A stretch of DNA of 63,623 bases, the filler included, from Dugesia japonica (Eukaryota): NCBI GenBank assembly GCA_001938525.1. It is 6 parts of 6 records of this genome, joined end to end, with 100 filler letters (N's around TTAATTAATTAA, not from the genome) between each part and the next. Parts side by side here need not be neighbours in the genome. Positions count along the whole stretch, not along the records: positions 13,650 to 27,349 come from MQRL01589065.1; 5 more parts are not named here. One strand, 5' to 3'. The notes under the pieces were generated by a model that searched no databases, was not told the DNA's origin, and saw only the letters and a list, made by a program, of their open reading frames with translations. Below, piece by piece: positions 566-29,631 of the stretch; position 1 is the first letter of the stretch, and every line of letters begins with the position of its first letter. The translations under genes were made by a program, and so were the position numbers.

Positions 566-3500
566 GGGCAATCACGCTAGAACTGTAAATGCGGTGATAA
601 GGAAATAGCATCAACTGAAAGCAATTTTAGATGCGTTACCAAAAAAGCGCCAGAATTAATAAATTTTAACGTCAGAAAATATGATGATGCAGAGGAATCT
701 TTGAAATGATTTAAGGATTTAGAAGAGTACACTATCGTTAGCACTTTCAATTTGTTGGATATCTTTGATCTTTTATTGTCAGATGGAGTACGAATTTTTC
801 GGAAAGATTCTAAAAAGATTGAAATCACAATAGAGGAAGCCAAAAGATAGTTCACAGACACATTTATAATAAAAAAAATCGTTTTCAGAGTTGATTTTAG
901 AATCAGCAATTGCAAAAAAAGAGACTGAAGAAAGATTCGCAACATTCGAAATAAGAGTAAGAAATCTGATAGATAATGTCATGAGTTCAGAACTAAGTAA
1001 AGATGAAATAACTAATGACGTACTCTCAAAGAAGGTGAAAAATACAAAGTTGAGAGAAACATTGACAACACGTCCTAATATTAAGATCACGGAAATGAGA
1101 TCCTTAAACAAAGATTTACGAGGACAAGGAACATTTTAAACGAATCACCGAAAAGGATTAATTTTTACAATTGGATTAAAATTGGAAAACCATTTTTGTC
1201 GATGTGCAATATCAGATTAAATGGAGCATTTAATAAGGACGGAGAAAAACCATTGGGAATAGCAGAATTAAGTATACAGTGAAACAAGAAAGTCAGGCAA
1301 ATTAAAGTCATCATAGTTAAACAGATCCACCCAGAATTGATACGCGGTATTGATACAACGCAAAGTTTTGAAGTGAAATTAACAGAAATTAATAACATCG
1401 AAAATGAGAGTCTGAAGATAACACATTCTGATGAAGATAGAAAAATAACGCGTTGAAGTTTTTTAAAGGAATTGATAAAAGAAAAATGGTTCAGTTGATC
1501 CAGAATTTTGTTGAGATATTCATGGCTTCAAAGTTCGATATTGGGCATACGAAAAAAAAAGAAATAAGTAAGAAATAAAAGTTAAAGGAGATCTAATAAT
1601 ACAGCACCCTAGAAGACACCCAATGCATTTAAAAAAGAAAATTGAAGATATGATTAAAGACTTATCAAAGATTGGTGCGATCAACTAGTTTAATAGTTTT
1701 TGGAATTCCCCATTATTGATTGGGGATAAAAAGGACGGCTCAATAAGAATGTGTGTGGATTACAGACAAGTAAATTTGAGAACAAAAAAGTCTCTTTTCC
1801 AATGCAAGACATTCAGTTGTTATTAAATTGTTTATCTGGTTCAAAAGTATTTTCATCCATTGATCTGGGCCAAGCTTATTACCAAGTGGAGTTATCAGAA
1901 AAGTCAAAGGATGTACCTGCTGCTTTCAGTACAAAGAAAGGCAAATTCAGATTTAACCGAATGCCTTTTAGATTAGCTACAGCACCGGCCACTTTTCAAA
2001 AGTTAATGCATGAGTTATCAAAGGGATTAATTTTCAAAAAGGAGTTATTGTATATCTGGACAATATTCTGGTGTACGGAAAAACTTTGAAGGATCACGAC
2101 AAAAGGATAGAGACAGTCTTTTACAAGATCAGAGACTCTGGGTTAAGAATAAAGCCGGAGAAATGTAAGTTTTATCATAAAAGAAGTGTCATTCTTGGGA
2201 CATACAGTTAGTGCAAATGGTATACGTACTAATGAAGTTAAGATTCAGGAGATTAAGAATGCTATAATTTCAGAATGTTCTTCAAAACTCCATTTGTTTC
2301 ACGGACTAACAAACTACTACACGCGTTTCATAAAAGATTATGCAAAGATAGCAGCTCCTTTATCTGAAGCAGCTTCAGGTTGCAACAAACCGTTAGTTTG
2401 GACAGAAGCTTGCCAGAACAGTTTCAATACATTCAAAGACAAGTTATGTAGTGCTCCAGTATTAAAATATCCCAAAGAGCATAGGATGTTTTTTTAGACA
2501 ATGATGCTAGTTTTGTGCAGTTCTTAGTCAATGCGAAGAGTAAAAGGAAGTGATAATAGCGTATGGATCTAGACATTTGACAGCTCATGAAAAAGAATAC
2601 TGTGTGACAAGGAAAGAACAATTAACTACACACGAATTTGTACAACAATTCAAACTATATATGTATGGAAAGAGATTTATAGTAAGAACGGACCACAAAG
2701 CATTAGTGTTTTTGAACCACACAAAGAAACCAATCAGTACACAATTTGAGACACAGATGGAAAATTTGGGAGAGTATGATTTTGAACTCAAGTATTGAAA
2801 AACGCGAAGAACACAACAATGTGGATGAGTTGGCAAGGCTAAATGAGAGTTTATGTTCGCAATGTGGCATGAAACACATAGACACAAAAGAGAAAAAGCC
2901 GGAGTGAAACATATCAATTGGAATTCAACATGAGATCGATGGAATCACAATGATTCGACAGTCTCAAACAGAAGATACAGAAATACAAAGCTGTGTAGCA
3001 ATGTTGCGAGAAGATTTATAGAATAAAGTAGTGAACAAGGAAGCTACTGGAATAAACTGAAACACGAATTGAAAATAGTGAATGATTTGTTTGTAGTAGA
3101 AAGAGAAAATAAAGTTTTGTTAGTGGTTCCAACAAGCATAGTTGATAAAGTGATAAAAGAAATTCATGAAGATTTATGTCACGTGGGAAAAAAAAGTTAT
3201 TTTCATACGTGCACGATTGTTTCTTCTGGCCATGGATGTGCGAGACAATTAATAAAAGTATTGATTACTGCAAAATGTGTGTCAAAAAAACAGTACAAAG
3301 TCCTACAAAAAGAAAAAACGTATACTGTGGAGAAGCCAAAATATTTTAGAACAACTTGTAGTGAACATAGCTCATAGGGAACAGAGCAAGTCTGGACAGA
3401 AATATGTGGTGGTAATTATTGATCGTTTTAACAAACTAGTCAGCTTATCTGCAGTTTCAAAAATGGATGATGAATTGATTTTTATGATAATAACCAAAAT

Positions 3501-6329: not shown

Positions 6330-7750
6330 ATTTATATACCTTATCATAGCATTTTTTTAAAGGTTTCCACAGACTCACAATGTGACTTTTTTTCATTAGC
6401 CATTCTAAACATTCTTTCTCTTATTTCTTTTGTAGGTGATTTGAACTCTTCTCTATTTATCAAACTGTTTTTGATACGAATTTCTTTAGATTTTTGGGAA
6501 ATGCTTTTTAATTTTGACCAGTCTGTGGGATTTCGAACAACAAACCAAACTGAAGACCATTCATAACTAATAAAACTATTTAGACTTTTAAGATCTTCAT
6601 TATCTACATTAAAAAGTATTTCAGCCATTAAACAATAAATAGCTTTTGAATTCCATCTGGATGAACATACATTAAACGGAATTTGTGGTATTTTAATAAG
6701 TAGTTTATCACCACTTTCTCGTAATGTCCGGATTCCTTTACAAAGTTCAAACAAATACCGATAGTCTTCTCTCCTATTTTCTAAATTAGGAAGGTCAACG
6801 CAGAATATTGGGGACAACTTTTAAACTTCTAAATATTTTTTCTGCAATTCAAACCATTTGGATTTGATTTCATTTACAAAATGGTATGTTTTATTCGGTC
6901 CAGCTGATTTTTCAGTTTCTAGAAAATAATTTATATTCTTCTTTCTCACTAAATCTGTGAGATCTATTTAAAACCATTTCGCTCTAGACTATATGGAGAT
7001 ATTAATAATTTTGATTACACCATTTCGTTTGATTATGATTGTTGTTCGCAATCAAAAAAAATAATTTCAATGTCATATCTCTGAAAAATATTCAAGAGCA
7101 ATGTTGCAATTGTACCTGCTTTTTTATTTGAAATTTCAGTCAATTCTATTAAAGACAAACACATATCATCTCTCTCTTAGAACAATAAAAATCTGATTGT
7201 GTTTAATATCTAAATACATAAATTTAACAAATCCATTGAGTGGAATAATCTTGGACAAATTAAAAGTATCCTTTCTAGTCACCACTGATAAACCACTTAT
7301 TGAAGAAGCTGATGAAAGTTCTTTTAAATATGCGGATTTTGTTTTGTAGAAGTTCATGATTGCTATCGTTTGAAAAATACCAAGATTTCCAATTTCTCTC
7401 AATTGCTCAGAAAATATAATATTTCTGTTTTTGATGCCATTGTCTATATCCATAAAATCTCTATCATAATATTCATCGTCATAAATTTCTTCAAAGCCAA
7501 TTTTCTTTTACTACTATTGCTGTTTTCAAAGAGTTTCATATCATTACTTTTTTTAATGTAAACGTCTCTTTTTTAACCGATGTATTTGCAAATCGAATAT
7601 TGTATACTAGTAATATCCACCTAATTTATACTTTTGGTTATAATAATATTGCTCATCCTCTTCAGATTTCCAAGTGTGTTTTGGTGGAAGACAATCAAAC
7701 CAAGCACCATTATTAGACAGTTACCAATCTTTTAAATTGGTGTATATGTG
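6330..7750 (-). pseudogene. Degenerate DNA transposase, probably hAT (hATm-like)
   Basis: CSSRWNSKAIYCL in ORF 6344-6817 resembles the RW..KAIY signature of hAT-type transposases; broken upstream frames 7166-7453 and ~7600-7710. Confidence 0.45.
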
Positions 7751-9695: not shown

Positions 9696-10057
9696 CTACA
9701 TCAAATCTAGAGCCCCCGGGTCTAACCACTGGGTAGGCTCATCTACCAAATAGTTTAAGGCGGCTTCGTCGTCTTTGTCGTTCCAACGGATACACGCTTC
9801 ATTCCCTAGATGCCTGGATAAATCTGTTATGCAACGATGTAGGAAGTCAATTTTGTGCTGTAATATCTGTTTAGTCTGTTCCGCCAACTCACTCGGCTTT
9901 TTCACTATAAAATCGAGATTCTTAATTAAGCGGTTGCGTTGTGCCAAATGGCGAAATAAAGCTCGTTCTGTTTGTCTTTTAAGGTGACGCTCTACGAGAA
10001 GCTTTTGGATTAGCCGGTGGCATCTACGCAGACTGGTGGGTAATTGTATACGTGGCA
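9696..10057 (-). CDS. Module D: ATG-less basic/helical ORF of ~120 aa after a splice acceptor
   Basis: ttattatctgtttag|TG CCA CGT in frame; stop at 9696; AATAAA at 9680-9685; the track's hydrophobic N-terminus is the polypyrimidine tract. Confidence 0.6.
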
Positions 10058-10264
10058 CTAAACAGATAATAATCATTAAGATAAGAGATAAACTAAGCAT
10101 TTCAAAATTCAAATGAGATCAATAAAGATATCAATCCAGACAAAATAAATTAGTACAAATTCAAGAAGTCTTTTATTTACAAATGAACAGTAATTGCAGA
10201 ATTCAGGGCCGCGATATTTGAGTGCTCTTTTCTATCATAAGCGGCTCAAGCGGCATTCTCTTTC

Positions 10265-10560
10265 TTATTCCAGAATGACATTCAGCAGTTTATTCTCACG
10301 GTCATGGAGGGATCGAAAACTTTTTGCAATGGACTCGATTTGTGACTCCCAGAGCCTTTCTTGGGCATGGGAGGCCTCTGCTTCTTGGCGGAATGCTATG
10401 CATTTCTTTTTGTATCTCTTTACCTCACCTTCTGAAGTGGTCGTGTTGACCTCCCATCGACGTTTTGCAAGGCGATACAAGTACCATGTCATCTCAGTGT
10501 CTTCACTTGATTGACATATTTTTTTAGTGGGTGCCGAGGAGCGGTTTTAAGATAAATGCA
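10265..10560 (-). pseudogene. Module C: coiled-coil ORF of ~98 aa after a splice acceptor, one early in-frame stop
   Basis: ctaat..catcctcatctttgcag|TG CAT TTA TCT TAA AAC.. in frame with track ORF 10265-10492; TGTAAATAAA at 10172-10181. Confidence 0.55.
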
Positions 10561-10720
10561 CTGCAAAGATGAGGATGTCAATTAGTAGTTATAGAAAATT
10601 AAAAAAATCAAACAACAAATTTGATATTTAAAAGATTATTATTCCTTATAATAGCTTATGGAATTCATCAGTAACGTAAAGATACAGTGTGAATACTTTA
10701 GTAATAAAAAAAACAAATAT

Positions 10721-11145
10721 TTATAATGAAGTCTCATTGGCGGGATTCGCGTTCTCGGAATTAATGCTCTCGCCGGAATTACGGATGTTCCACAAATTAT
10801 TCTGAACGAAGGCATTCAGCTCAGAAAAAGGAGGTAAGTGTTCAGTAGACAAACTCACGATGGAAGGGCCTACCTGCTCAATCTGGACGGTTCGTGGTTC
10901 TCCATTAATATCTAACTGAGTTGTGGTAACGGCGTGGTAGACAGCACGTGTGTGATCGGGGTCCGTCCAGTTATAATAGGCCGCACGCTCGTTTGCGTCC
11001 CACTGTCTTTCATCCTCTATTTTATCGGCCGGTAAGTTTGAACGTTCTACGAGAACCCCAGCATCACGGTTATGCGGGTACTTGTAACGTTTAAAAATCG
11101 TACGCGCCGTCCTTCTATCAAGCACGATTTCCCCTTTATATTCCA
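10721..11145 (-). CDS. Module B: ATG-less 141-aa ORF after a splice acceptor, unknown product
   Basis: actaacatattttatag|TG GAA TAT in frame (branch-point-like ACTAAC); open 141 codons, relatively GC-rich. Confidence 0.65.
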
Positions 11146-11286
11146 CTATAAAATATGTTAGTTTTTTTTATCGTGTATAATTAGTGGTAAAATAATAAGA
11201 AAATGTAAGTGTAACTACTTGATTGAAATATTATTTATTTTAGTAAAAACAAAGAAGAAAATTTGTAATGAACGGCAGTCATAGTT

Positions 11287-13549: not shown

Positions 13550-13649
13550 NNNNNNNNNNNNNNNNNNNNNNNNNNNNNNNNNNNNNNNNNNNNTTAATTA
13601 ATTAANNNNNNNNNNNNNNNNNNNNNNNNNNNNNNNNNNNNNNNNNNNN
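13550..13649. other. Artificial scaffold spacer
   Basis: N44-TTAATTAATTAA-N44, exactly 100 nt; identical spacers at 27350-27449, 36190-36289, 45228-45327, 55257-55356. Confidence 0.97.
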
Positions 13650-16600
13650 TTTTAGCGGATGGATGGCAACCAGAAGTGTATGGCAAATTTGAAGTTGAGT
13701 ATCAGGGGAGAACAGTATCGCATGAAATGACAGTATTGAAAATGAGTGAGGATTGCATATTGGAAACGGATCTAATTCTATTATTGATGAAAAATGTAGT
13801 TTTGGATATGACCACATTGAAAATATTGAATTCCAGAGAAAATTTATATATGAAGGATAATGAAGTATATACAAACGAAAAATTGGTGATACCGAGGAGG
13901 AGTCAAGTATTTTGTATTGCGAAAACCCAAGCAAACTGTAAAGAGGATATGAATTTTGAACCACATGAAGGGTTCTCAAAGCGATATAAATTGACCGGCG
14001 AGGGAAATAGTAAAATTGTCTGACGAAGGAAAAGTGCCAGTCAACGTACTGAATATGACAGAAGAAGATATTACGATATATCCAAATTCAAAAATCGNNN
14101 NNNNNNNNNNNNNNNNNNNNNNNNNNNNNNNNNNNNNNNNNNNNNNNNNNNNNNNNNNNNNNNNNNNNNNNNNNNNNNNNNNNNNNNNNNNNNNNNNNNN
14201 NNNNNNNNNNNNNNNNNNNNNNNNNNNNNNNNNNNNNNNNNNNNNNNNNNNNNNNNNNNNNNNNNNNNNNNNNNNNNNNNNNNNNNNNNNNNNNNNNNNN
14301 NNNNNNNNNNNNNNNGCGTGGACAGACAATGAATTAGGTACGTGTGCGGTGACAAAACATTCAATAGTATTAACAGACGAAACACCAATAAAGTTGCGAA
14401 CTTACAAACAAGCCGAAGCAAACCGAAAGATCTGTGAGGATAAAATTGACGAAATGCTAAAGTGTAAAGTAATCGAGTCAAGTTGTTCACTGCGGTAATT
14501 TCCAGTGGTATTGGTGAAAAAGAAAGATGGAACCATGAGATTCTGTATCGATTACAGACAACTAAATGCNNNNNNNNNNNNNNNNNNNNNNNNNNNNCCA
14601 GACATTAACGATATGTTAACGTTATTATATAATGCAAAGATATTAACGACATATGATTTGCAGAGTGGATATTGGCAAATCAAAATAGAGGAAGCAGACA
14701 AAGAGAAAACCACATTTTTAGCAGGCAAAGATTTATATCAATTTGTGCGAATGCCNNNNNNNNNNNNNNNNNNNNNNNNNNNNNNNNNNNNNNNNNNNNN
14801 NNNNNNNNNNNNNNNNNNNNNNNNNNNNNNNNNNNNNNNNNNNNNNNNNNNNNNNNNNNNNNNNNNNNNNNNNNNNNNNNNNNNNNNNNNNNNNNNNNNN
14901 NNNNNNNNNNNNNNNNNNNNNNNNNNNNNNNNNNNNNNNNNNNNNNNNNNNNNNNGACTTATTTGGGGCATCTGATATCAGACAAAGGAAAACAACCGGA
15001 TCCGACGAATATCGAAAAAATCAAGAATTTACCTGTGTCGATAAACGTGAACTACATTCAAGTGTTACTAGGAATGGCGAATTATTATCGAAAATTTATC
15101 AAAAGATTTGCGACAATCGTGAGACCTATTCAATCACTAGTGAAACAAGACGTAAAATTCATTTGGACAGATGAGCATCAAAAAGCATTTGAAACAATTC
15201 TAGAAAAGTTAATGACGGCACTGATATTGGTACAACCAGATTTTAGGAAATCATTTAGACTTGCAACGGATGCAAGCGGTTACGCAATGGGTGCAGTATT
15301 AAGTCAATTAGATGAAGAAGGACGAGAAAGAGTGATCGGATATTTTAGTAAAACATTNNNNNNNNNNNNNNNNNNNNNNNNNNNNNNNNNNNNNNNNNNN
15401 NNNNNNNNNNNNNNNNNNNNNNNNNNNNNNNNNNNNNNNNNNNNNNNNNNNNNNNNNNNNNNNNNNNNNNNNNNNNNNNNNNNNNNNNNNNNNNNNNNNN
15501 NNNNNNNNNNNNNNNNNNNNNNNNNNNNNNNNNNNNNNNNNNNNNNNNNNNNNNNNNNNNNNNNNNNNNNNNNNNNNNNNNNNNNNNNNNNNNNNNNNNN
15601 NNNNNNNNNNNNNATTACAAGCAAATAGAATAGCCAAATGGGCGATGAAGTTACAAGAATATGCACCGCTGGTCAAATACAAAACTGGAAAAGCAAGAGC
15701 AAAATTTACAGACGAACCAGAAGAAGTGTTAGAAAATAAAGCAGCCAGGGGTGAATGGATAGACTTACAGCAATTGATGAATCGAGACATACGATCTTTA
15801 TGTATGATATTGGCAGAGAATAAAGATTTTACCGGATTAAAAAAGGATCAGTACTAGGACGAGGAAGTGAAAATAATACTAGAGTATATATCTCACTTTG
15901 ACTTGAGTAAAGTGGAGTGTAACAAAGCGATTAAAGAACACTTAAAGAAACGAGGTGGTAGATATACCATGGTAAATGAGTGGTTAATGATGAAGAAAGG
16001 TGATCAACTATTATTGGTAATACCAAAATGTAGACGAGTAAAAATACTTGAGCAGTACCAAAATGGAATTCTAGGAGGTCATATGTCAGCAAAGAAAACT
16101 GAATCAAAATTACGAGCTAAATATTATTGGCCTCANNNNNNNNNNNNNNNNNNNNNNNNNNNNNNNNNNNNNNNNNNNNNNNNNNNNNNNNNNNNNNNNN
16201 NNNNNNNNNNNNNNNNNNNNNNNNNNNNNNNNNNNNNNNNNNNNNNNNNNNNNNNNNNNNNNNNNNNNNNNNNNNNNNNNNNNNNNNNNNNNNNNNNNNN
16301 NNNNNNNNNNNNNNNNNNNNNNNNNNNNNNNNNNNNNNNNGGCATTTGCATTAAAGGATCAAAAAGCGTCGACAATCGCCAGAGTATTAGTCGATAAGTT
16401 ATTCAGTCGGTATGGACCACCGAAAACGATATTGACAGATCAAGGAAAGAACTTCATGAGTGAATTAATGAAAGAAATGACTAGTTATTTTAATATTCAT
16501 AAAGTACGGATATTGGTGTATCATCCACAAACGGATGGAATAACGGAGCAATTCAATCAGACATTGACTAGAATGTTATCGAGTTATGCGACGAAATTCC

Positions 16601-17510
16601 AGAGAGATTGGGACAAACATTTGAATTTGTGTTTANNNNNNNNNNNNNNNNNNNNNNNNNNNNNNNNNNNNNNNNNNNNNNNNNNNNNNNATGTACGGTC
16701 GAGAATGTAATATGCCAATAGATTTGGAGCATCAGCCACCGATATCGCAGTACATGGGCGAAGATGATTATGTTACTGGTATGAAAGAGAGAATGCGAGA
16801 AATATAGAAATTGGCAGCGTTAAATGCGAAATTTAATCAAGAAAGTTATAANNNNNNNNNNNNNNNNNNNNNNNNNNNNNNNNNNNNNNNNNNNNNNNNN
16901 NGAGAACATCCCGCAACAAAAGCTTCACCTTTTAAACTTATGTACGGTCGAGAATGTAATATGCCAATAGATTTGGAGCATCAGCCACCGATATCGCAGT
17001 ACATGGGCGAAGATGATTATGTTACTGGTATGAAAGAGAGAATGCGAGAAATATAGAAATTGGCAGCGTTAAATGCGAAATTTAATCAAGAAAGTTATAA
17101 GGAATTGTATGATCGAGAAACAAAGCCCCGTACGTTTAAAAAGGGTGATATGATACTGATTAATACATCAACAATTGAAATTGGAACCACAGATAAATTA
17201 AAACGACCAAACAAAGGACCGTATTTAGTGTTAAAAACAACTGCAAAAAATCTAAAAGTAAAGGAAGTTGGAAAGCCACTCAAGAAGCCAAGTATTGTTC
17301 ATGTATCGAAATGTAAACTAGCAACAACCCAAGACGACAATGATAAAGAAAGCGATGAGGAGACTGTTGAAAGAGTGAGACGAGTCAAGGTCAAGCCAAA
17401 AACGGAGGACAGTGACGAGGAGGTCAAACAAAACTTTAAAAAGACAAAAGGAGTTAGTTTCAAACCGAGATTAATTGATGAGGAGAATCGATACCCAATC
17501 AGGTCCAGAC
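13650..17510 (+). pseudogene. gypsy pol: protease end, RT, RNase H, integrase
   Basis: VLVKKKDGTMRFCIDYRQLN; DLQSGYWQI; YLGHLIS; LATDASGYAMGAVLSQ; GGHMSAKKT..YYWP; TDQGKNF..YHPQTDG; GPY motif; C-terminal RYPIRSR. Confidence 0.95.
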
Positions 17511-20500
17511 AGCAAATAATGATGATAATGGGGAAAACAATCAAAGCGGTAGACGTCAATGTGAGTACATGCAATCAGAGGAATCTAGTCTTGCGATGTA
17601 AAATATGTCACTGTACAAGTTCTATTACAGTGCCATTAAATAAAGTGCTTATGAGCAAAATATGTTTTCACTGTTTACAATCGATTTATGATAACTTAAC
17701 GTTGATGGAGAAAAGTGTCAAACGAGAATCATTACAAGAGGATAGGAAGGAACCCAATCGTTCCACATGTGAATAATGTAATGAAATAGCGTTCAAACAG
17801 AAAGTAGACTCGGACTTATATCAGCAATGGTGTAATAGTTACCTGTGTAAGGCTAAAGGAATTATTGACAATGAATTGGAGGGCTTACATGTACATATGA
17901 GAGGATCAACAGCAGCCAATTCTATTAGACGAGATATAGAATTAACTCATGACGAAATTTTACAAAAATTCAAATTAAATGATCAATTAAAAATTTATGA
18001 AAATAGACGAGATATGCTTAATCAATATTATTCTTCAGTGACGGACGACTGGAAGAAAGGAAATCGAAAATGCGACAATCCAAGATGTGGACGATATAAC
18101 ATGAAAGGACTAATTCCCCAAATTCAGACAACGATAACGGGGGAAATGGTTACGATTCACTAGAGGAAGTGGTAAAAAGCGGGATGATGGACTATTGTGA
18201 ATTAAGCGGACGACCACCGCATGCAGAGTAGGGGGATACACCAAAAATCACTAAATTAAAGGATGCTGTATGGGAGGAGTTTTTGACACAACAAAAGAAG
18301 TATGAAGCAGAGAATAGTCAGAGAGTCAAAGCTGAGGAAGACGATATATTTAACGCAGAGACGATAGCTATGATGAGAGCGTATTTTATAGATAGTGTTG
18401 ATTCCAACAGCCGTACTAGAAAAGATTAAGGCGTGCGGTGAAGGATGTTATCAAAAATGGATCCAGGAACATAAAAAGGAAGGAAAACCGAGATTACCGG
18501 AACATAAAGACAAAAAGACGCCCGGAGAGCGGCCAACGTCAAAAGAGGAGCGAAAAAGAAAGGAAAAAAATAAGGAAATAGAAACTGCAATATTATTAAC
18601 AGTAGAAAGAGTATTGCGTCGTGGAATGGACATACCTAAAGAGAAAAAGTTGGAAATGCAAGCGTATTATCAAAGGAGAAAACGCAAATGGTGTGCAGAA
18701 CGTCCAGGAGAAAAGTTTCCCACGATACGGGATGGGTATAGGATGGAGAGATGGCCGAGAGATCAAGAACTCCAAAAGTATCATGAACGAGAGTATAAGA
18801 GAATGCGGTGTGCTTTACAAAAAGCTAGAGGAATATTTAAAAATTGAGGAATCGTACAACGGAAAATCTCTTATCGAACAAGATTGCGAAGAGCGATTCA
18901 TAAGAAGTGAAGATATGGTAATTGAGTACCAGAGAATAGCAGATGTGTATCCACATCCATTGTTGGTAGAAGAGAGTGAAGCGATGAAAAAATAATACCT
19001 ACAAGCAATGCAGCGTAAAGCAAAACAAGAAAAAGAACAGGATTCGAGCAAGCGCCAAAGTCAAGTGGAGATGTGGAAATAAGAATGGGGCAAACAATTG
19101 CAAAAATGTTATGGAATCACGGAACCAGAAACGAAAACTAAAACGCTAAAGGAAGCAGAAACATTGAACTTTTGAGGGATTATTGAGGACGACACAAAAG
19201 ATAATGACAAAGTTGAGGACGAGATAGTAGTAATTGGAATGATGGACCTTAAGGGCAATGTCCTGTTTGAGATGCCTTTTACACCTGAGTTAATGAAGGA
19301 GATTAGAGCAATTCAAGAAAAACAAGAAGAAAGAAAGGTTGGAACAAGACAATATGAGTGTGGAGTGAAAAAGAATCAAATAATAGAACAAGAAATTAAC
19401 TTAGTGATGGAACAGGCAACGATTAAAGAACCGAGTCGAGGAACTCCGTTACCAGAACCACCACAAATGGAAATGACACGTCAGAAGGAAATTATGTATA
19501 CCCGATGAAGAAATCCGAATCACAGGACCCTGTTTACGAAAATGAGTCAGGAGATCTAAAGGTGGAAACAAAGAGGACATACTTCTTACCTACAATCAGA
19601 ATTCGGGATTATTCGAAGCCAACAGAGAGTGTAGTTTTTACTACTACCACTATATTCATGTGTTCTATTCTACGCGTGACCGGTATGAGCCAGTCTGGCT
19701 CGGATTCAGAGGCAAATGTCAGAAAAAACGGGCGGGGTATATCTCGCAAGTCTGGAGAATCGAACTACGGGGAGTGATGGGAATTCAATGGAACCGGTTC
19801 CCATTAGGTATATGGAGACAGCACGCCACCTTACGAAAAGAAGAGTGGCCTATGATGGATATGAAAATGCGTATAGTAGACAAAGAGATGCAGAAGTTAC
19901 GTTCCAAGGGTCACGTAGAAGAAAATGGTTTTTTCGGATTAAGCAATATCAGTCTTTAACATATTGGATGCAAGACGGGATGTTACAAGAATATAGATGG
20001 GAACGTAACCAAAACGAAATGATAATGAAGCTTAATCAAGAAAATGTGGAGTGGTTAGAATTAGAATATATATTATTAGACGAGATGCCACCGAGCAACA
20101 AGGCAATAACCGTCAAACCGACGACAAAAGGGAGAACAAAAGCGAAAACCTACTTAAAGACGGCAATGGTCAAGTCAACAACAGAGAAGTGGAGGACGAG
20201 GGTGTATTCAAAAATGACAACGACAGCGATAACAACTATCATGAAGAGAGGTACGACAGAAACCAGTGTACAAAGTAAAAGGAGGAACCATATGATGACG
20301 GGGTATGCGAAAACGACAACTGAAAGTGAATCAACGAGGAAGCCATCGAATGTATTAAATAAACANNNNNNNNNNNNNNNNNNNNNNNNNNNNNNNNNNN
20401 NNNNNNNNNNNNNNNNNNNNNNNNNNNNNNNNNNNNNNNNNNNNNNNNNNNNNNNNNNNNNNNNNNNNNNNNNNNNNNNNNNNNNNNNNNNNNNNNNNNN

Positions 20501-20714
20501 NNNNNNNNNNNGTGGTGGAGTAGCGGGCGTCATTACGATTATCATGATGACGATTATAACAATATTAATTTGTAAAGCGAAACGAGGGCAGTATTCGAGA
20601 CTGCGTTTGGAACCGGAATTAAGAGAATTGACAGCAAAATATTTGCATCCGCCAAGAGAGTTGGTGCGATCGGGAGTTCCAGAGGGAGGAACTGGGTTGC
20701 TATGGAGTTATTGA
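17511..20714 (+). pseudogene. Decayed ~1000-codon extension of pol: Cys-rich part, charged helical region, putative ectodomain, Thr-rich stalk, TM helix and short tail
   Basis: In frame with integrase; CxxC pairs (CKIC, CFHC, CE*C); 17060 and 17876 ORFs share a frame across one stop; TM GGVAGVITIIMMTIITILIC followed by KAKR. Confidence 0.6.
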
Positions 20715-20930
20715 GGAGAATAGTGAGAGTGAAGTTGTAAATAAATTTCCTGAAATTTAACAGTAAGGTACACAATTTAGTTTTGAGTAGCTCNAAATGT
20801 AAAGTAGAGCATAGCTGATTAAATTGAAATTAAAATGTGAATTAGTTGAATAAATTTGAATTTTATATGGATCACTATAAAATTTATCGTAGTATTTAGT
20901 TAGTAAAGAATGGAACAGAAACAGATAACA

Positions 20931-21425
20931 ATGAACGGACAACTAGCAGTAAATGTGGATCTAGACGACTTCGACAGAGCAATTACGGAGGAACCATGAC
21001 AAACGTATACCCAGATGCTTAATCAACTTTTAAATCCTTATTTTACAATGGAAATTTTGTGGGACGAACACTGCCGAAGCGTAATGAGAAATTCAGATAT
21101 GTTAAACGAGCAACTTCAACAGACACGACAATTAAACGCAATCCTTGTGGAGAATGTAAATTTTCATGTGTTGCAGATACATCGACTGAATAAAATAGTA
21201 GAGAATCAGAGACGACAGATTACCGAGAATCAGAATTTTTACCTACAAACTTTGAGTGGAACTAACAAAATAGTAGAGGATCTGAGACACCAAGTGGATG
21301 AGTTACAAGCCTATAATGCAGAGCTTATTCTATCCGGAATTAATCGACTACCGAGCGTATCCGCCATCCTGAACACTATCGAGACGAGCGAGAGGATGTG
21401 GTATCGAGAAGAGAGTAATGTATGA
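20931..21425 (+). CDS. Accessory coiled-coil ORF (one internal stop upstream of 21015)
   Basis: ATG at 20931 in frame with track ORF 21015-21425; heptads IVEDLRHQVDELQAYNAEL; AATAAA at 21518. Confidence 0.6.
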
Positions 21426-21588
21426 TAAAAGGTGCTAAAACGTAGAGTATTGTAAAGTATGTGTGTTAAATAGTAACTGTATTACTATTCAAAAAAAATC
21501 AAAAACAGTAAAAGTATAATAAAAGTAGAGTGGCAATTATATTTATTTAATCAGTGCGTAATCAGAATAATTCCAATTTGTATATAGA

Positions 21589-21809
21589 ATGTCTGAAGAT
21601 TTTCAAAGGCTGTGGAGTTGTGGGGTGGAGACGATCACGATAGAGAAGTCAAGTTTGGAACAGAAATCAATCGCAGAATTACAATTTCGGTATTAAATTT
21701 ACCTTGTGAGCATGTAGCAGTTTGTCAAAAATGTCACCAGAGAAACGAGTTTAAGCGATGTGAAGTGTGTAAATGTCCAATAGAGGAGTGGCATGTGGTG
21801 TATTTATGA
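21589..21809 (+). pseudogene. IAP/MDM2-type C-terminal RING finger (C3HC4_3-like), first CxxC missing
   Basis: LPCEHVAVCQKC..RCEVCKCPIEEWHVVYL*; tatag|aATG upstream but out of frame; TGTAAATAAA at 21828-21837. Confidence 0.75.
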
Positions 21810-21996
21810 GTGGAATACCCGGTAAATTGTAAATAAAAATAAAATCAGGAAACAGTACAGTAAAAGTAACAAAGGAAGCAATATTAAAACAATTGGTACA
21901 TATCAGTCTCAATTAAAAGTTGAATTATCAGTAACTCCCAATATCTTAATATGTAGATATTCCATATTATGATTTACGTATATTTCAATTAAGAGA

Positions 21997-22984
21997 ATGG
22001 CATCCAGATATCAGAAAAGTATGAGTCGACAACGAGTGCGATCAAAAGATATTTTGAGAAAAGTAATTCCATCAACAATGACAACTCCCGTCTATATTAC
22101 TAACCGAGAACACAGGAAAATAAAGCGAGTGAACAGCTACGCGGTGGCGAGTCGCCGAAATTACAGTCAAATATACTTGAAATAGAGGATCAGGTTGATT
22201 CATGTTGCAGATCAAGTTGAATCAATCCAAATCCAATCCCCAAGGTCACGATGAACCATTTGATGAAATAGAACAATCCCGAGCTCAGTGGAAACAGGCA
22301 TGTTTAGCCAAAGAAGAGAAAATACATCAACTACAACTGGAATTGTCATCCATGCAAAAAAGACATCTAGATCAGGTCAAAGAATTAGAAACGGAGATCA
22401 AGTGGCAGAGCAAGAAAATAAAAATGCTCGAGAAAACCATGGAAAATAATAACGAAATCAGAATTGTGAATCAACGAACTCCCCAAGTGAAGACGAATAA
22501 ATTGCAAGAAGAAATCGATCAATTAATAAAAGAAAGTCGAAACCAACAATCGCAAAGAGAACAAGATATGATCGAAATTCAAAACCTAGAAAATGCCGTA
22601 AAGCATCTGCGCGATGAGAATGTTCTCTTAAAGGAAACTCCTATTCGAGTAGTAATCCCTCCACGTCAAATTAAAACTACAAAGCGAGAACAGACCTTTT
22701 ATACCTATAAAATCAATGGGCGATCAGTAGCCCCACAAATCAGCTTATTAGACCAAAGAGCGAATCATAAAAGAAAAGATCAAGTGTCTCAATTTTCCCG
22801 TCAATTTCCCAATTCTCAGTCCAGTCAATCCAGCCCATCCTATCCTACGACTTGGACAAATGAACAATCGCAATGGCCATATTCAGCGTCCGAAGAGGAT
22901 CTGTTCAAAAGGTTAAAAATCTGGTTAAAAGGGAATAACTGGACTCAGAGAACTCGGAAAAAGTTCGGAAAAGAAAATTCATAA
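21997..22984 (+). pseudogene. Accessory long coiled-coil ORF with basic N-terminus and S/Q/P-rich tail (frameshift near 22185)
   Basis: aagag|aATG at 21997; heptads EEKIHQLQLELSSMQKRH..LQEEIDQLIKE..IQNLENAVKHLRDENVLL; AATAAA at 23058. Confidence 0.6.
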
Positions 22985-23196
22985 GCAGAACTAGGTCATA
23001 AATAATGACGGAGATTACATTATTGATTAACTTATTATGGTAAAAAGAAATGTTCTCAATAAAGGTTTTAAATTATTAAAAAATCGCCGAAAATTATGTT
23101 ACAACTTAATTACAAATAATTATAATCTGACTTTTTTCTTGTTAAAATGAATCAAAAATCTACATTATTTTTCGTTTTCATAATAATAATTAGTAA

Positions 23197-23620
23197 AAGA
23201 TTGGAAAGTGGTATATTGAAAAGTTAAGACGCAATTGTATTCGTCGTTCCAGATTCAATGAAGGCGTTCAACCATTAACTACGTTCAAGATCTCAATACC
23301 CACAGAAGTGAAATTTAATTCTTATGTCACTGCGGATAACAATCTCCTAGTTGCAGATATTCCATCTACTCATGACATTCTAAATCAACTACTAGCACCA
23401 AATTTAAACGATGTAAATGTTGATGATGACAACTTTATTGATGTTCTACTCGATCTGACTATTCACGACCGCATGTGAATGGTGGGCGAATCTACGACGT
23501 CTTTTGGAAACATTGAATGAAGTCCTCACAATTACCACGAAATCTAGAACTACGGAGATCACAGAGTCTGATTGCGATGAAGCCAAGGACAATGAGTCTG
23601 AGATGGAAGATCTAAATTAG
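23197..23620 (+). pseudogene. Fourth accessory ORF, acidic, decayed (absent from ORF track)
   Basis: Stop-free frame KIGKWYIEKLRRNCIRRSRFNEGVQP..DVNVDDDNFIDVLLDL to 23478; acidic tail in a shifted frame ends TAG at 23620. Confidence 0.45.
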
Positions 23621-24969
23621 TGATCCAAAGTTTACTGGTCATCTCTCTGCGTTCTCTTCTTTTTCTTCCGTAGTCGTTATGATCCACAGCTTTTAGCTGA
23701 CTAAAACAAGACAGGTTTAAACTTGGGGAGAATTTTCTAGCATGAAAGATGACTCCGTTTATCTCGGAGTATGCTTTTTATTCGATGGCCAAAGAATTCT
23801 CACTTAATAATGTTAAATAAACGAAAATCAAGAAAATTTATTTAAGTCTCAAATGTTTTGACATTTAAATTTGACAAAAATTCCAAATCGAGTTATTCGA
23901 TATTTGGCGTGTGAATGGTTCATTTCTTGGAGTGATTAATTATGATAATAAGACTATTGTAAAAAGATAGAAAATCTTAACTAGAAAGAAAAAAGACAGA
24001 AATCTACTGAGATGTATTTCGATATTTCTTTATTCCACAATAGAAGTTAATAGAATATTTTGAAATGAAAAACAAAAAGAAATATTGTTATGAAAATTAA
24101 AAAATAATTAATTAAATACATAATTGTGACACACAATATAGAAACTAAGCTAGATAATATTCATTATTCCATCGAAAACCTGTGGATTCATCAAATCTAA
24201 TATACAATCAACTATTCGTAATTCCAAACCGCGGCTTTCCGAGACATTACTATTCGATTTCAAATCTACAAACATTGTATAAATAGATCAACAACTACAA
24301 AACTACATTGAAAATTATCGACTGTCCTTTGTAACACGATTTGCATTGATCCGATCACTTTAGAACATACAGCCTGTAGAAGAATATATACAGAACTATT
24401 AATTATCAATAAAAGAACTTTCTCTTTGATTTAAATCAATAAATACAAAACATTCTAATTTTTGAAGATGAATTATAGTTAGAAATTTATGTTACAAATC
24501 AATCAAGCATATCATTCAATTAAATCTGAAGAAATAACTTTACTTTCACATAAAAATAATAGTTCTAAAAGAAATTTACTGTAAATTCAACAGAAAAGTA
24601 TTTAATTTTTGTTTTTACCGAATTTTCGACAATAGCTTTCACTATACAATAAGTTTTGAGAGATGCAGAATTGATTTCAACAAAGGAGCGATTGTGTTGA
24701 TAATCAATAAGCTTGTCAAACACGCATGGTATTAAGTTAATTCTATTAAAATGAATATTTTTATTCATCAATTCAATTATTAGATATTTTGCAAAAGCGT
24801 TTCATTTTCTCTTGGAAAAATTGAACAGATGTTGCTTATTGATTACACAAAAACTTCTTCAAAAAAGATAGTTATATATCATTCAAAAAATGTACATAAT
24901 TTTAAAAATATTGCTCACTAGGATTTTAAATTTTTTTTAATTAAATCTTTATAAATCTATACGATAAAT

Positions 24970-25248
24970 CAGTGGTTCTTAACCTTTTTAGTGGTCAGCA
25001 CCCCCTTGAATATGAAAATAAGCTCTCGCAACCCCTAAAAATGTGTTTATATATTTTATTTAAGAAGCATTTATTGCATAAGAAAATGAATACATTTACA
25101 ATATAAATTAATATATAACTGATGACAAGCGCGATGTGCTGAGAGACGCTAGACAGTGTACAAGTAGGGCTGTCACGTTGATGGGTATCAAGGTTCGTTT
25201 TCTTTTAATTTTTGAAATTTTTCTCGCACCCCAGATAAAGAACCACTG
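24970..25248. mobile_element. hAT MITE
   Basis: TIRs CAGTGGTTCTT / AAGAACCACTG; TSD CGATAAAT / CGATAGAT. Confidence 0.85.
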
Positions 25249-25334
25249 CGATAGATAAAAAGATTTTTTAAGAAAAATTGCAAATGTACACCACAGAGTA
25301 AGACAAATATAAACACAGAATGTATACCATATAT

Positions 25335-25570
25335 CAGTGCCCCGCAATCGGTGTGCCGTGAGACAATTGTATTACTGACACAGCAAAACTTCTAATTTCA
25401 GTAATATTAATGTTGTAATCCTTTAATTATATGTGAAGTATTTAAATAAATGTGATTTCTGTTTAATAATATTAAAATGTTTTATTCTTTGTATATTTGA
25501 TTTTGCTGTGCCATATGACTCTGGAAACAGCTTTAGTGTGCCATGAATGAGAAAAACTTGCGAAGCACTG
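25335..25570. mobile_element. hAT MITE
   Basis: TIRs CAGTGCCCGCAA / TTGCGAAGCACTG; TSD CCATATAT / CTATATAT; GTGTGCC subterminal motifs. Confidence 0.8.
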
Positions 25571-26019
25571 CTATATATTAAAAAAACCGGAGTAAAATTT
25601 AGAGTAGCGTATTTTCGAATTGATAACACGCGGATTATCTACATAAAAGAAAAATAAAGAGTCCTTGAAAACATTTATCTATTATAAAAAAGTGCAAGAT
25701 CTGAGAATTTTAAATCCTTTCAATTTGTTCANNNNNNNNNNNNNNNNNNNNNNNNNNNNNNNNNNNNNNNNNNNNNNNNNNNNNNNNNNNNNNNNNNNNN
25801 NNNNNNNNNNNNNNNNNNNNNNNNNNNNNNNNNNNNNNNNNNNNNNNNNNNNNNNNNNNNNNNNNNNNNNNNNNNNNNNNNNNNNNNNNNNNNNNNNNNN
25901 NNNNNNNNNNNNNNNNNNNNNNNNNNNNNNNNNNNNNNNNNNNNNNNNNNNNNNNNNNNNNNNNNNNNNNNNNNNNNNNNNNNNNNNNNNNNNNNNNTAA
26001 ATTTAATTTATATGCTTAA

Positions 26020-26651
26020 GATTTTCCAGTAATTTTAGCATTCTCTATGACTATTAATAAGACCCAAGACCAATTATTTGATATAGTTGGCGTGTATTTG
26101 CTTGAATCAGTTTTCGCTTATGACCAAGTCCACGTTGCACTTACTCGGTGTAGAAATCATGAAAATCGTAGAATGTTTATCAACGAACCACTTAATCAAG
26201 TAAAAATTCTTAATGATCATCGCACTTTCACAAAAAACCTTTATAATATAAACATCCAATTCGCTCACTGACTCACTCTGGAACGCTCGCACACAGGTAA
26301 AAAAATCAATGATAATTTATATAAGTGCGTTGGAATTAGCAAACTAATATACCATAACGGTTAACGGATATTTGAATTAGTTTGGGTGAAAAAGCAGACC
26401 TGATTAACCGTCAACTTTTGTATGAATTACAAGGACCGTTATTAAAAAATGCAAGACAATTTACTTGCAATGTTGTGTATGCCGAAATAATTCAGCAAAT
26501 AAATACTAACGCTTCATTGTATGAACAATAAATTTTACTGCTCTTTTTTTAATTCAAACCAAAAATATTTGCAAAATATTCTCATTTTCAGATTGAAAAT
26601 TAAAAATAAATTCAAAAATTACGAGCGCACAGGCGCCTTAGAGTAAACTAG
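26020..26651 (+). mobile_element. Helitron 3' end (PIF1 helicase C-terminus, hairpin, CTAG)
   Basis: FPVILAFSMTINKTQDQ..VGVYL..VFAYDQVHVALTR; hairpin GCGCacagGCGC then CTAG|T at 26648-26652. Confidence 0.85.
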
Positions 26652-27926
26652 TAAATAATTTCTTCACCAAAATGAAATTCATCAAATTCTGGACATAAAC
26701 AAGGCTACATTCTAAAGGAAATCATTTTACATTAACTATAAAAAAGGTTATTTGAAAAATTAATTATTATGCCTATTTTATAAATTATGATCAATGGAGT
26801 TACATATTAAAATTCTGATTTTGTAATCAATTATGTAGTTACCTTATTAAAAACTGAAAGTGATTATAAATATCCAATGAAGATTTACGAAGACCAACGT
26901 GAATGTGAATTTCTATAATCCCTAAAATTTCAGCGGAAAAACTTTAATTTACAAGTAACATTATGATCAGAAATATTACTTGCAAAGATGACAAGAAGTC
27001 TCTTCAAAATACGTGACATTTCAAAAATTACAATAAAATTTATAAATAAAAGCGGATACAATTTATGTTAACATTTTGAAAAATGTCGACATAATTTTAA
27101 AGTTTGGAAAATAAACTCAATAATTACAGATTTGACACAAGCTAAATGTAAATATTAGCAGAAAGTAGAAAATGAACAGAATTCATCTGGTACTTCATGA
27201 TTTCAATGAATTTCAATATCGGTACTTATGAACGCATCGTAGTTCACATTGATGATTATAACATTCGGTTAGATAAGAATCTTCAAATAATTTTATGCTT
27301 GTTTGTTTTTATGGATCCTACTTATCGGTTACAGACGATTTTTTTTTAANNNNNNNNNNNNNNNNNNNNNNNNNNNNNNNNNNNNNNNNNNNNTTAATTA
27401 ATTAANNNNNNNNNNNNNNNNNNNNNNNNNNNNNNNNNNNNNNNNNNNNTAATAACAGATAATTATTTTCTTTAAATTTTCGAATTATTTAAAATAAAGA
27501 TTTAATCTAAAATATTAAATTTACTAGAAAATAATTTCCAATGGAAGCATGGGTTTTAATTTGTTTGAATTAAAAAAAGGATTGTTTGTGAATAAATTTT
27601 GCTATGGAATCGAGTTTTGATATTAATGATCAGATGAGTTCTCTAAACTCATCTAACAGTAATTATATTTCGTTGGAATAATAACTAAAAATTTATTATT
27701 GAACTCCTGAAATTCTAGATTTTTAATCATCCCATGATTGTATAATAAATTATCATGATAGAAAAAAATTGCTTTTTAAAAGAAAATCAGTACATACTAG
27801 TACATCCGTGGAATGGGAGAAAAAAAATAGTATTTTAATCTCAATATAATCAGGTTGTATTAATAATGCTAGTAGAAATTCAAATATTTAGTTAAAAGTA
27901 TCAGTTACAATATCCCTGTCCTCTTT

Positions 27927-29631
27927 CATATTTGAAGAACAACTAAGTGATTAGAATATAAGTGATTAAAAATAAATATAACGTTAATTCGTATTATTAA
28001 AACAACAATATTTCGAATTTCCAAAACTCTCCCCTCCTTTAAAACGTTTTTCATCTTTTTAACCATTCTTTTCTTCTGGTTTTCAAACCATTTGGAAACT
28101 TGATTTCTACTTGATGTGCTGATACAAACCTCACTATTTGGTATTACTTCATATAGCAAACCGTTTTTCTTTTGTTTGTGTGGTTCTACTCGGACTAATA
28201 CCCACTTTTCAATTTTCTAGGCATTCTTCTCCAAATTCTGTCGCACTATCTCTTTTCTGCCTGTTCTTCTGTTTAAGAGCGTTTCCTCTTAGGTATGCAG
28301 ATTTATCTTTCTATCAAATACGATTTTGAAAGGAGAGAATTTTGCTGACTCTTGTATTGTAGCATTAATACTAAATACTACTCTCAGTAAAGTGTCTCCC
28401 AATCTTTTTCATTACATTTCCTTTTTATTCATATCTTAATCATGTCCCTTCACTGTTCGGATCGTTTCTTCTTTTTTTCTGTCTGAGCCGGTTGAATCAT
28501 TGTAATTATATCGGTTGAATTCCATTGATACGTTTTACTCTGACTTTTTCTCATTTTGAGTCTATGTGTTTCATGCTATATTGTGAACATAAACTCTCCT
28601 TTAAAAAGATCTAAAATTATGGCCAGACTTGCCATAAATTAAAAATCTGTCTTCTAATGAGCATTGATTTTGTTTATACCCACATTCTCAACAGCAGTAA
28701 CATTTACCCACTTGGAGTTTATCTTCACGAGATTCTAGAAATTCACTATGTCTGTTAAATAACATCTTGCAAAATATTTCATCAATACTGCCGGTTTTGG
28801 CCTCATCACCTGAGTTTTATCTTCCATCATCACTGGTTGGGTGCTCCTCTCATATACTCTTTTTAATGGCAAAACATTAACACGTATTTTATGTTTATCC
28901 TCTTCAACTCTATTTATGTATAGTTTCACTACATTTGTATAACTCATCTTTTTTGTATCATACAGATATCTTTAATTTCAGTGATTCATTGATAATTTCC
29001 TTGTTCTCGTGTTGTCAATGTTTCTTTCAACTTTGTATTTTTCACCTTCTTAGAGAGTACGTCATTAATTATTTCATCTTTACTTAGTTCTGAATTCATG
29101 ATATCATCTAACCGATTTCTTACTCTGATTTTGAATGTTGCGAATCTTCCTTCATTCTCATGTTTTGCCGTTGCTAATTCTAAAATCATATCTGAAAACG
29201 ATTTTATTTATCATATATGTGACTGTGAATCGTCTTTTGGCTTCCTCTGTTATGATATCAATTTTTTAAAAATCTTTTAAAAAAATTCCTGCTTTGTCTA
29301 ACAATAGCAAATCAAAGATATCCAAAAAATTAAAATCGTTAACGATAGTCCCACCTACGTTGAAGCTTCTTCTGCAGCTTTTTCATCATATTTTCTGACG
29401 TTAAAATTTTTTAATTCTTGCGTTTTTTTATAAAGCATCTAAAAACAAATTTCCGTTGATGCTGTTATTTTGTCAGCGCATTCACAGTTCTGGTGTGGTT
29501 GCCATTTACAATATTCTTGTCATCATATTTGATCATATTTGAAGAACAACTAAGTGATTAGAAAATTTATTAAAAATAATTTATAACGTTAATTCGTATT
29601 ATTCAAACAACATTATTTCGAATTCCCATAC
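27927..29631 (-). mobile_element. Internally deleted gypsy element with ~100-bp LTR-like direct repeats (same family as 566-3726)
   Basis: Direct repeats 27927-28026 and 29533-29631; PPT AAAGGAGGGGAGAG at 28040-28027; gag from ATG ~29514 with decayed zinc knuckles ~28620-28710; RNaseH-IN linker and IN end; RT deleted. Confidence 0.88.

What the first reader, a model, noticed from the sequence alone, without database searches (positions are those of the whole stretch)
19505..20714. Env-position type I membrane protein: possible MAM-like ectodomain, mucin stalk and TM
Seen: Thr-rich stretch (KPTT, KSTT, MTTTAITT, KTTTES), a 20-aa hydrophobic helix, KAKR stop-transfer and a tail with YSRL (YxxL). 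The 19660-19959 frame (QVWRIELRGVMGIQWNRFPLGI...GFFGLSNISL) loosely resembles the C-terminal half of a MAM domain. I see no clear fusion-peptide layout. Inference: a captured adhesion or receptor-like surface protein rather than a classic fusogen. An N gap lies between stalk and TM.
Basis: partly seen in the sequence, partly recalled or inferred. Interest (0 to 1): 0.7.

Follow-up and report, generated by a model that had tools for sequence, protein, structure and literature searches.

The report
Retrotransposon's broken stalked membrane protein
A decayed copy of a very abundant gypsy-type jumping gene carries, far behind its integrase, a broken gene for a membrane-anchored protein with a threonine-rich stalk, which likely served as a surface attachment protein rather than a fusion protein; the proposed MAM domain found no support.

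Summary
The Thr-rich stalk (22 Thr in 86 aa), the 20-aa helix, KAKR and YSRL are all present, and 0 of 5000 shuffles match either feature. They lie in a decayed, high-copy Ty3/gypsy element. The gene follows about 800 post-integrase codons and precedes two coiled-coil ORFs and a RING ORF. The helix-tail segment recruits 3.5-4.2 times the contig depth of the ectodomain, as a better-conserved anchor would. No MAM match appeared in Pfam, PDB sequences or the ESM Atlas, and both folds were too poor to test it. F-type and gB-type envelope features are not seen. No homologue was found. The link between stalk and helix is unproven, because N-gap lengths here are estimates. Best reading (0.55): an accessory, non-fusogenic single-pass surface protein, likely for attachment, possibly beside a separate fusogen in the missing 5' half. 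It is a new variant of a known kind (accessory transmembrane ORFs of gypsy elements). This copy is broken.

The parts
13650..17773 (+). Ty3/gypsy pol in pieces between N gaps: RT, RNase H, integrase and its C-terminal part. The scaffold piece begins at 13650, so gag and anything upstream of pol are missing
   Evidence: Pfam RVT_1 8.4e-4, RT_RNaseH_2 6e-21, rve 3.4e-6, Integrase_H2C2 1.3e-7; best PDB matches 4ol8 (7.9e-19) and Ty3 Gag-Pol 7q5b (1.5e-17); 44N-12bp-44N linker at 13550-13649
17057..19508 (+). Long coding extension after integrase (about 816 codons), no known domain, broken by point stops and by frame changes near 18130, 18400 and 18810; last frame ends at TGA 19506-19508
   Evidence: Translations; frame model; no significant Pfam match beyond MLVIN_C 0.045
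19505..19777 (+). First piece of the finding: ATG 19505 overlaps the stop of the extension (ATGA); 90 codons; hydrophilic start
   Evidence: frame undecided at 19520-19700
19631..19680 (+).
   Evidence: role as internal signal is inferred
19546..19959 (+).
   Evidence: Favoured at 19720-19920; a contig of depth 371.7 aligns 19576-19860 with 38 substitutions and 0 gaps; strands predicted only at low confidence
19960..20105 (+). Third piece, predicted beta-rich, directly before the stalk
   Evidence: Frame posterior 0.99-1.0; three strands in a pLDDT-35 model
20106..20365 (+). Thr-rich, basic stalk (22 Thr in 86 aa)
20366..20511 (.). Assembly gap of 146 N (length an estimate)
20514..20573 (+). 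Predicted transmembrane helix
   Evidence: KD19 up to 2.57; 0 of 5000 shuffles
20574..20714 (+). 46-aa tail: KAKR basic patch, YSRL, stop
   Evidence: bin 20492-20720 has 3.5-4.2 times the depth of the three ectodomain bins in 3 of 3 contig runs
20922..21425 (+). Coiled-coil ORF, one internal stop
   Evidence: only weak coiled-coil-type Pfam matches; high depth
21597..21809 (+). C-terminal RING finger ORF
   Evidence: Pfam zf-C3HC4_3 E 5e-6, 26.7 bits against a cut-off of 27; no PDB match at E 0.01
22199..22984 (+). Stop-free 261-codon coiled-coil ORF, at lower repeat depth; whether it belongs to the same element is inferred
   Evidence: depth 370-1910
23000..23470 (.). Right edge of the repeat; no LTR could be delimited
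   Evidence: Depth falls from 500-840 (23011-23239) to 46-72 and then 9-14; no internal LTR-like repeat in the self-comparison

Best explanation
This is a broken copy of an accessory gene of a high-copy Ty3/gypsy retrotransposon that likely encoded a single-pass surface protein, predicted to hold a compact head on a threonine-rich stalk and likely to act in attachment rather than fusion. SHOWN: the element context, the stalk composition, the helix, the basic patch, YSRL, the repeat status and the breaks. INFERRED, step by step: (1) The protein was made either as the C-terminal end of the long pol polyprotein or by re-initiation at the ATG that overlaps the stop. (2) The hydrophobic stretch at 19631-19680 would act as an internal signal and send about 140 aa of head and about 135 aa of stalk into the secretory pathway. 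(3) The stalk would be O-glycosylated and act as a spacer. (4) KAKR would fix N-out/C-in topology, and YSRL would sort the protein through endosomal adaptors (established YxxPhi biology, recalled). (5) On particles or on the producing cell, the head would bind a neighbouring cell. Fusion, if any, would be done by a separate envelope protein upstream of pol, as in published flatworm GAG-ENV-POL and Burro elements. That part of this element is not in the window.
For: Element identity. Repeat family: ectodomain depth about 250-560 times and helix-tail depth about 1070-2190 times that of the flank in 3 of 3 contig runs (summed depth is not a copy number). Contigs 13-14% diverged align across the helix and tail, one with 0 gaps over 20512-20780 (records 10, 20, 21). 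Helix and stalk exceed chance. The coding-frame model (77 of 89 held-out windows right) treats 19720-20360 as coding. No R-x-K/R-R site in 4 of 4 pieces, no Cys in 19848-20363, and a total of about 403 codons argue against F- and gB-type envelopes. Precedent: small TM ORF3s without env homology in rotifer elements (PMC5408684, passages); fusogen upstream of pol in flatworm elements (PMC13524379 section 5 part 1; PMC6431247 section 7).
Against: No homologue or fold supports any function. The join of head, stalk and helix into one protein is not shown: there is one frame change at 19920-19960 and an unread gap. Both other frames stay open over long parts of that frame (1 of 20,000 codon shuffles), which a plain single gene does not explain. 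The stalk is basic and Pro-poor. The higher depth at helix and tail could reflect more copies holding that segment rather than selection. No upstream fusogen is visible, and the host group comes only from unchecked earlier notes. In the one RNA run laid, 0 of 219 reads were 95% alike or more.
Confidence: 0.55

Rival explanations
1. The region is an array of small, partly overlapping ORFs, not one gene: a 90-aa ORF (19505-19777), a 60-aa ORF starting at the TGATG overlap (19777-19959), and a short stalk-plus-helix protein without signal peptide starting near 19960.
For: ATGA at 19505 and TGATG at 19775 link stop to start in successive frames. The long double-open frames are rare under one gene. 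The gap-free high-depth contig over 19576-19860 fits fixed frames. Earlier unchecked notes report micro-gene arrays in elements of this genome (e1-9268182, e1-9389716).
Against: ATGA occurs 8 times in 19300-20100, so such overlaps are cheap. The pol extension has three similar frame changes within 700 bp that look like lesions. The frame model favours the second frame already at 19720, upstream of its ATG.
Confidence: 0.17
2. The head is a captured and decayed MAM or related jelly-roll adhesion domain, giving a receptor-like protein with MAM, stalk and helix.
For: Beta-rich, aromatic sequence in the favoured frame. From the Cys at 19630 to 20090 is 153 codons, close to the 158 positions of PF00629. 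A CxF start and a YILLDE end before the stalk resemble MAM ends as I recall them; that is a lead, not a test. Base composition at 19505-19960 differs from pol (A 0.33 against 0.40).
Against: No MAM match in Pfam, PDB sequences or the Atlas (recognition 1867 and 1286, below 2300). A recalled C-[LIVM]-x-F-x-hydrophobic MAM motif is absent. Only 2 Cys lie in the favoured frames. The stretch 19850-19910 is predicted helical.
Confidence: 0.12
3. It is itself a divergent fusogen, either an unrecognised envelope or a FAST/sORF2-like cell-cell fusion protein.
For: It lies downstream of pol. It has a helix followed by a basic patch and a nearby Tyr, features listed for sORF2/FAST-like proteins (PMC11952523, passages).
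Against: sORF2/FAST-like proteins are 63-107 aa with ectodomains of about 30 aa; the stalk alone here is 86 aa or more. There is no furin-type site, no second strongly hydrophobic segment in the head, few Cys, and no envelope match in Pfam.
Confidence: 0.08
4. The scaffold joins pieces of different copies at the 146-N gap, so stalk and helix come from different subfamilies or are further apart than shown.
For: The assembly is gappy inside this repeat, with a duplicated 161-bp block and frame loss at 3 of 4 RT-integrase gaps. No listed piece spans the stretch.
Against: Both sides belong to a high-depth repeat in collinear order, and stalk-then-helix is the order a type I protein needs.
Confidence: 0.08

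Closest known systems
Non-env transmembrane ORF3s of bdelloid rotifer LTR retrotransposons (Vesta4, Vesta6c; PMC5408684, abstract and passages read)
   Same: Extra ORF after pol with predicted membrane segments and no clear homology to known env; the paper warns that TM, glycosylation and cleavage motifs do not make an env
   Different: Those are 210-230 aa; Vesta4 has two hydrophobic regions, Cys, RXXR and a coiled coil. This one is about 400 codons with a Thr-rich stalk, no R-x-K/R-R site, and RING and coiled-coil ORFs behind it
Burro/GYPSM1 giant gypsy elements of planarians (PMC6431247, section 7 read whole)
   Same: Abundant gypsy-type element with much extra coding sequence, ubiquitination-type domains, and accessory ORFs that may be separate or part of the polyprotein
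   Different: The review names no stalked membrane protein; whether its domains include anything behind integrase is not stated in the text read (figure not held). Burro's env, BIR, BCL2 and MATH domains are not in this window; kinship was not tested
Platyhelminthes GAG-ENV-POL HSV/gB-type errantiviruses (PMC13524379; abstract, section 5 part 1 of 2, passages and supplement rows read)
   Same: Multi-copy Ty3/gypsy elements in which the fusogen lies upstream of pol, which would leave the post-pol place free for another surface protein
   Different: No gB-type gene is visible here (5' half missing), and the passages read describe no post-integrase surface protein
sORF2/FAST-like proteins of MDG1-group elements (PMC11952523, passages read)
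   Same: Accessory membrane protein with a juxtamembrane basic patch and Tyr; sometimes downstream of pol
   Different: Far smaller, with an ectodomain of about 30 aa and often a myristoylation motif; no stalk

Membership tests
Ty3/gypsy (Metaviridae) LTR retrotransposon | RT, RNase H, integrase in that order, closest to Ty3-type enzymes | tested here: met
Ty3/gypsy (Metaviridae) LTR retrotransposon | gag, two LTRs, primer site | tested here: inconclusive
   Scaffold piece starts inside pol; no LTR pair in the self-comparison
MAM domain (PF00629) | Profile match to PF00629 | tested here: not met
   No match listed in the 12 finding-frame pieces scanned (4, 3, 3, 2). HMMER filters drop most matches above E 0.1, and the pieces were scanned apart
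MAM domain (PF00629) | Jelly-roll beta-sandwich fold | tested here: inconclusive
   Single-sequence models at pLDDT 35 and 45; no Foldseek match at E 0.001; best VIA Z 4.5 (rmsd 4.1, 84 aligned), none at 5 or above
MAM domain (PF00629) | Four Cys and the C-hydrophobic-x-F-x-hydrophobic motif (recalled) | tested here: not met
   Motif absent; Cys at 19630 and 19717 only within the favoured frames
F-type envelope of errantiviruses | Furin site followed by a hydrophobic fusion peptide | tested here: not met
   No R-x-K/R-R in 4 of 4 pieces; no second strongly hydrophobic segment; the gap is unread
F-type envelope of errantiviruses | About 600 aa with conserved Cys | tested here: not met
   About 403 codons, a third of them stalk; no Cys in 19848-20363
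HSV/gB-type envelope | Five-domain ectodomain with conserved Cys bridges | tested here: not met
   Head of about 140-155 codons with 2 Cys in the favoured frames; no profile match
sORF2/FAST-like fusogen | 63-107 aa, ectodomain about 30 aa | tested here: not met
   At least 130 stop-free codons precede the gap in the stalk frame, if stalk and helix are one ORF
sORF2/FAST-like fusogen | Helix followed by basic patch and Tyr | tested here: met
   KAKR and Tyr 20592; not specific
Type I membrane protein | C-terminal helix with positive-inside flank | tested here: met
Type I membrane protein | Signal sequence in frame with the ectodomain | tested here: inconclusive
   Candidate at 19631-19680 lies in another frame than the favoured head frame; no signal predictor was available
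Mucin-like stalk | Thr/Ser/Pro-rich, O-glycosylated | tested here: inconclusive
   Thr 26%, Ser 8%, Pro 2%, Lys/Arg 23%; glycosylation cannot be tested with these tools
Burro / flatworm GAG-ENV-POL elements | Envelope gene between gag and pol; pol phylogeny | not testable with these tools
   5' half absent, no genome held, no reference pol sequences obtained

The most novel reading that the evidence does not exclude
An invertebrate retrotransposon has a two-component entry system like a complex virus: a fusogen upstream of pol, plus a separate captured attachment glycoprotein (MAM- or lectin-like head on a mucin-like stalk) at the end of the pol polyprotein, with its own RING ligase behind it. 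Together with the FN3-type case noted elsewhere in this genome, different lineages would have put different adhesion domains into the same slot.
Probability: 0.15. Interest if true: 0.72.

Novelty: new variant of a known kind. Interest (0 to 1): 0.4.

Why it matters
How envelope-carrying retrotransposons outside Drosophila pass between cells is open (PMC13524379, passage). A dedicated attachment protein next to the fusogen would give a testable route to cell tropism and would show an exchangeable adhesion slot behind integrase. As it stands, the evidence shows a real, homologue-less accessory membrane gene in a broken copy, with no fold or function established.

Tried and rejected
Homologue searches: word search with the stalk frame, longer and near lengths (0 of 462 and 0 of 767 candidates), and with the post-integrase frame (0 of 624). 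Viral contigs: 0 loci in 3 scans. Metagenomes: 0 loci with the stalk frame; 1 locus with the helix-tail, L002, rejected as a chance 9-residue match in 50% GC DNA. PHROGs: nothing better than E 0.002. Atlas: three unnamed clusters at 0.84-0.86 for one piece and no usable hit for the other. AlphaFold without alignment was unusable. Fold searches found nothing above background, and MAM was not among the rows shown. An attempt to obtain real MAM sequences for a local profile failed: 0 of 1 and 0 of 93 genomes, controls silent. No paralogue of the post-pol frames lies elsewhere in the window. A single frame from pol to the helix with point stops only was rejected: 4 stops in 60 codons after the first, P about 1e-4 at this copy's rate of 7 in 1716. 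No RNA holder listed. The one RNA run laid gave 219 reads, all under 95% alike, 59% running on unlike, so it says nothing on this copy. A second, finer laying of reads was not obtained, which leaves the gap length and the exact break positions open. Earlier findings: no look-alike by sequence and none for RING. Literature: searches listed no paper on a MAM- or mucin-stalk protein in an LTR retrotransposon (listings only). The primary Burro paper was not held, so its supplements may describe such an ORF. PMC8532177 (passages) added nothing.

Full report
Context. The window is AT-rich eukaryotic DNA made of scaffold pieces joined by 44N-12bp-44N linkers; the finding lies in the piece 13650-27349. 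No genome is held. The piece opens inside a pol gene: RVT_1, RT_RNaseH_2, rve and Integrase_H2C2 match in that order, and the closest solved relatives are Ty3 proteins. After integrase, coding sequence runs on for about 816 codons with no known domain, to TGA 19506-19508. A frame model trained on the element's own frames shows frame changes near 18130, 18400 and 18810. Behind the finding lie a coiled-coil ORF (20922-21425), a RING finger ORF (21597-21809; zf-C3HC4_3, E 5e-6, just under the cut-off) and a stop-free 261-codon coiled-coil ORF (22199-22984). Contigs of three public runs give summed depths in the thousands over most of 17057-21636, hundreds to about 2800 up to 23239, and 9-14 at 23469-23697. 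So the whole array is a high-copy repeat. No LTR could be delimited. Unchecked earlier notes on this genome call the host a probable flatworm; I did not test this.

Observation. The stalk motifs share one stop-free frame: 22 Thr in 86 aa against 6% elsewhere, with 0 of 5000 shuffles reaching that count. The stalk is also basic (20 Lys/Arg) and has 2 Pro, unlike a typical mucin. The helix 20514-20573 is by far the most hydrophobic segment of the element (2.57; next 1.68), and 0 of 5000 shuffles gave its like. KAKR, YSRL and a 46-aa tail follow. Stalk and helix agree in frame across 146 N. This is weak evidence, since frame is kept across only 1 of 4 gaps inside RT-integrase and another gap is flanked by a 161-bp duplicate.

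Frames. The ORF is in three pieces. The frame model got 77 of 89 held-out 90-nt windows right (order 2; 73 of 89 at order 3). That frame has no signal-like stretch; the only candidate (19631-19680) is hydrophobic in the two other frames. These three facts do not fit one simple model and remain unexplained. Since the extension has three similar frame changes, the change at about 19500 may be a lesion too. The membrane protein would then be the end of the polyprotein and not a separate ORF.

Conservation. The helix-tail bin has 3.5, 3.9 and 4.2 times the mean depth of the three ectodomain bins in the three contig runs. Contigs about 86% alike align across it, one without gaps. This fits a conserved anchor under a faster-changing ectodomain, but summed depth is not a copy number, and dN/dS was not measured.

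MAM test. Twelve pieces of the finding's frames, some with X at stops, gave no PF00629 match. PDB sequence searches at E up to 10 listed no MAM protein. The Atlas gave only unnamed clusters at 0.84-0.86 for one piece and nothing for the other, with recognition below its threshold. A recalled MAM motif is absent. Models without alignment reached pLDDT 35 and 45, and fold searches were at background, so the fold is untested. In favour remain the aromatic beta-rich character, a span of 153 codons from the Cys at 19630 to the stalk against 158 positions in the profile, and a lower A content than pol. I give MAM or a related jelly roll 0.12. No homologue was found in any collection.

Fusogen test. 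F-type envelopes have a furin site, a fusion peptide, conserved Cys and about 600 aa (PMC5408684, passages; PMC13524379, passages). gB-type envelopes have five domains with Cys bridges. Here there are about 403 codons, a third of them stalk, no R-x-K/R-R site in 4 of 4 pieces and no Cys in 19848-20363; the gap is unread. sORF2/FAST-like proteins are 63-107 aa (PMC11952523, passages). None fits.

Mechanism. The most likely reading (0.55) is an accessory single-pass surface protein with internal signal, compact head, glycosylated spacer, anchor and sorting motif, acting in attachment, with fusion left to a separate gene. Published flatworm elements place that gene upstream of pol (PMC13524379 section 5 part 1; PMC6431247 section 7), which is the part missing here. 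Every functional step is inferred. Rivals: an array of small ORFs (0.17), captured MAM (0.12), a divergent fusogen (0.08), a chimeric join (0.08).

Expression. In the one RNA run laid (about a quarter read), 219 reads lay on 17057-23900, none 95% alike or more. This says nothing on this copy.

Verdict. The feature is real and element-borne, broken in this copy, and without a named relative. Accessory transmembrane ORFs of gypsy elements are known. The combination of stalked membrane protein, coiled coils and RING behind a long pol extension was not found in six literature searches (listings only; the primary Burro paper was not held). New variant of a known kind; interest 0.4.

Noticed in passing
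window 21597-21809 (+): C-terminal RING finger (zf-C3HC4_3, E 5e-6) inside the repeat, behind the membrane gene; may be an element-borne ubiquitin ligase or the last exon of one, flanked by AT-rich spacers
   Followed up: partly
window 17057-19508 (+): About 816 codons of unknown coding sequence after integrase, including a Cys-rich stretch (CxxC motifs near 17600-17670) and no homologue
   Followed up: partly
window 19546-19956 (+): Both alternative frames stay open for 76 and 89 codons (1 of 20,000 shuffles); possible overlapping coding
   Followed up: partly
window 22199-22984 (+): Stop-free 261-codon coiled-coil ORF at about ten-fold lower repeat depth than the rest of the element: subfamily-specific part or a second element
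   Followed up: partly
window 19529-19543 (+): VYENE in the ATG frame resembles a tyrosine-phosphorylation site (recalled, untested)
   Followed up: no
window 16691-16851 and 16940-17100: Exact 161-bp duplicate around a 50-N gap, most likely an unmerged assembly overlap
   Followed up: yes
window 45662-46129 (-): DUF4062 match (E 3.2e-10) with a weak NPHP3 match, probably an exon of a host gene
   Followed up: no
window 1730-2494 (+), 36945-37298 (-), 39658-39858 (+), 58465-59228 (-): Further decayed reverse transcriptase fragments; the last looks Penelope-like by eye (recalled, untested)
   Followed up: partly
window 731-1072 and 29008-29349: Two 86% alike copies, in opposite orientation, of a repeat with open frames on the minus or plus strand and no Pfam match
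   Followed up: no
window 9699-11167 (-) and 6347-7507 (-): Protein-like open frames of 93-158 codons with no significant Pfam match
   Followed up: no
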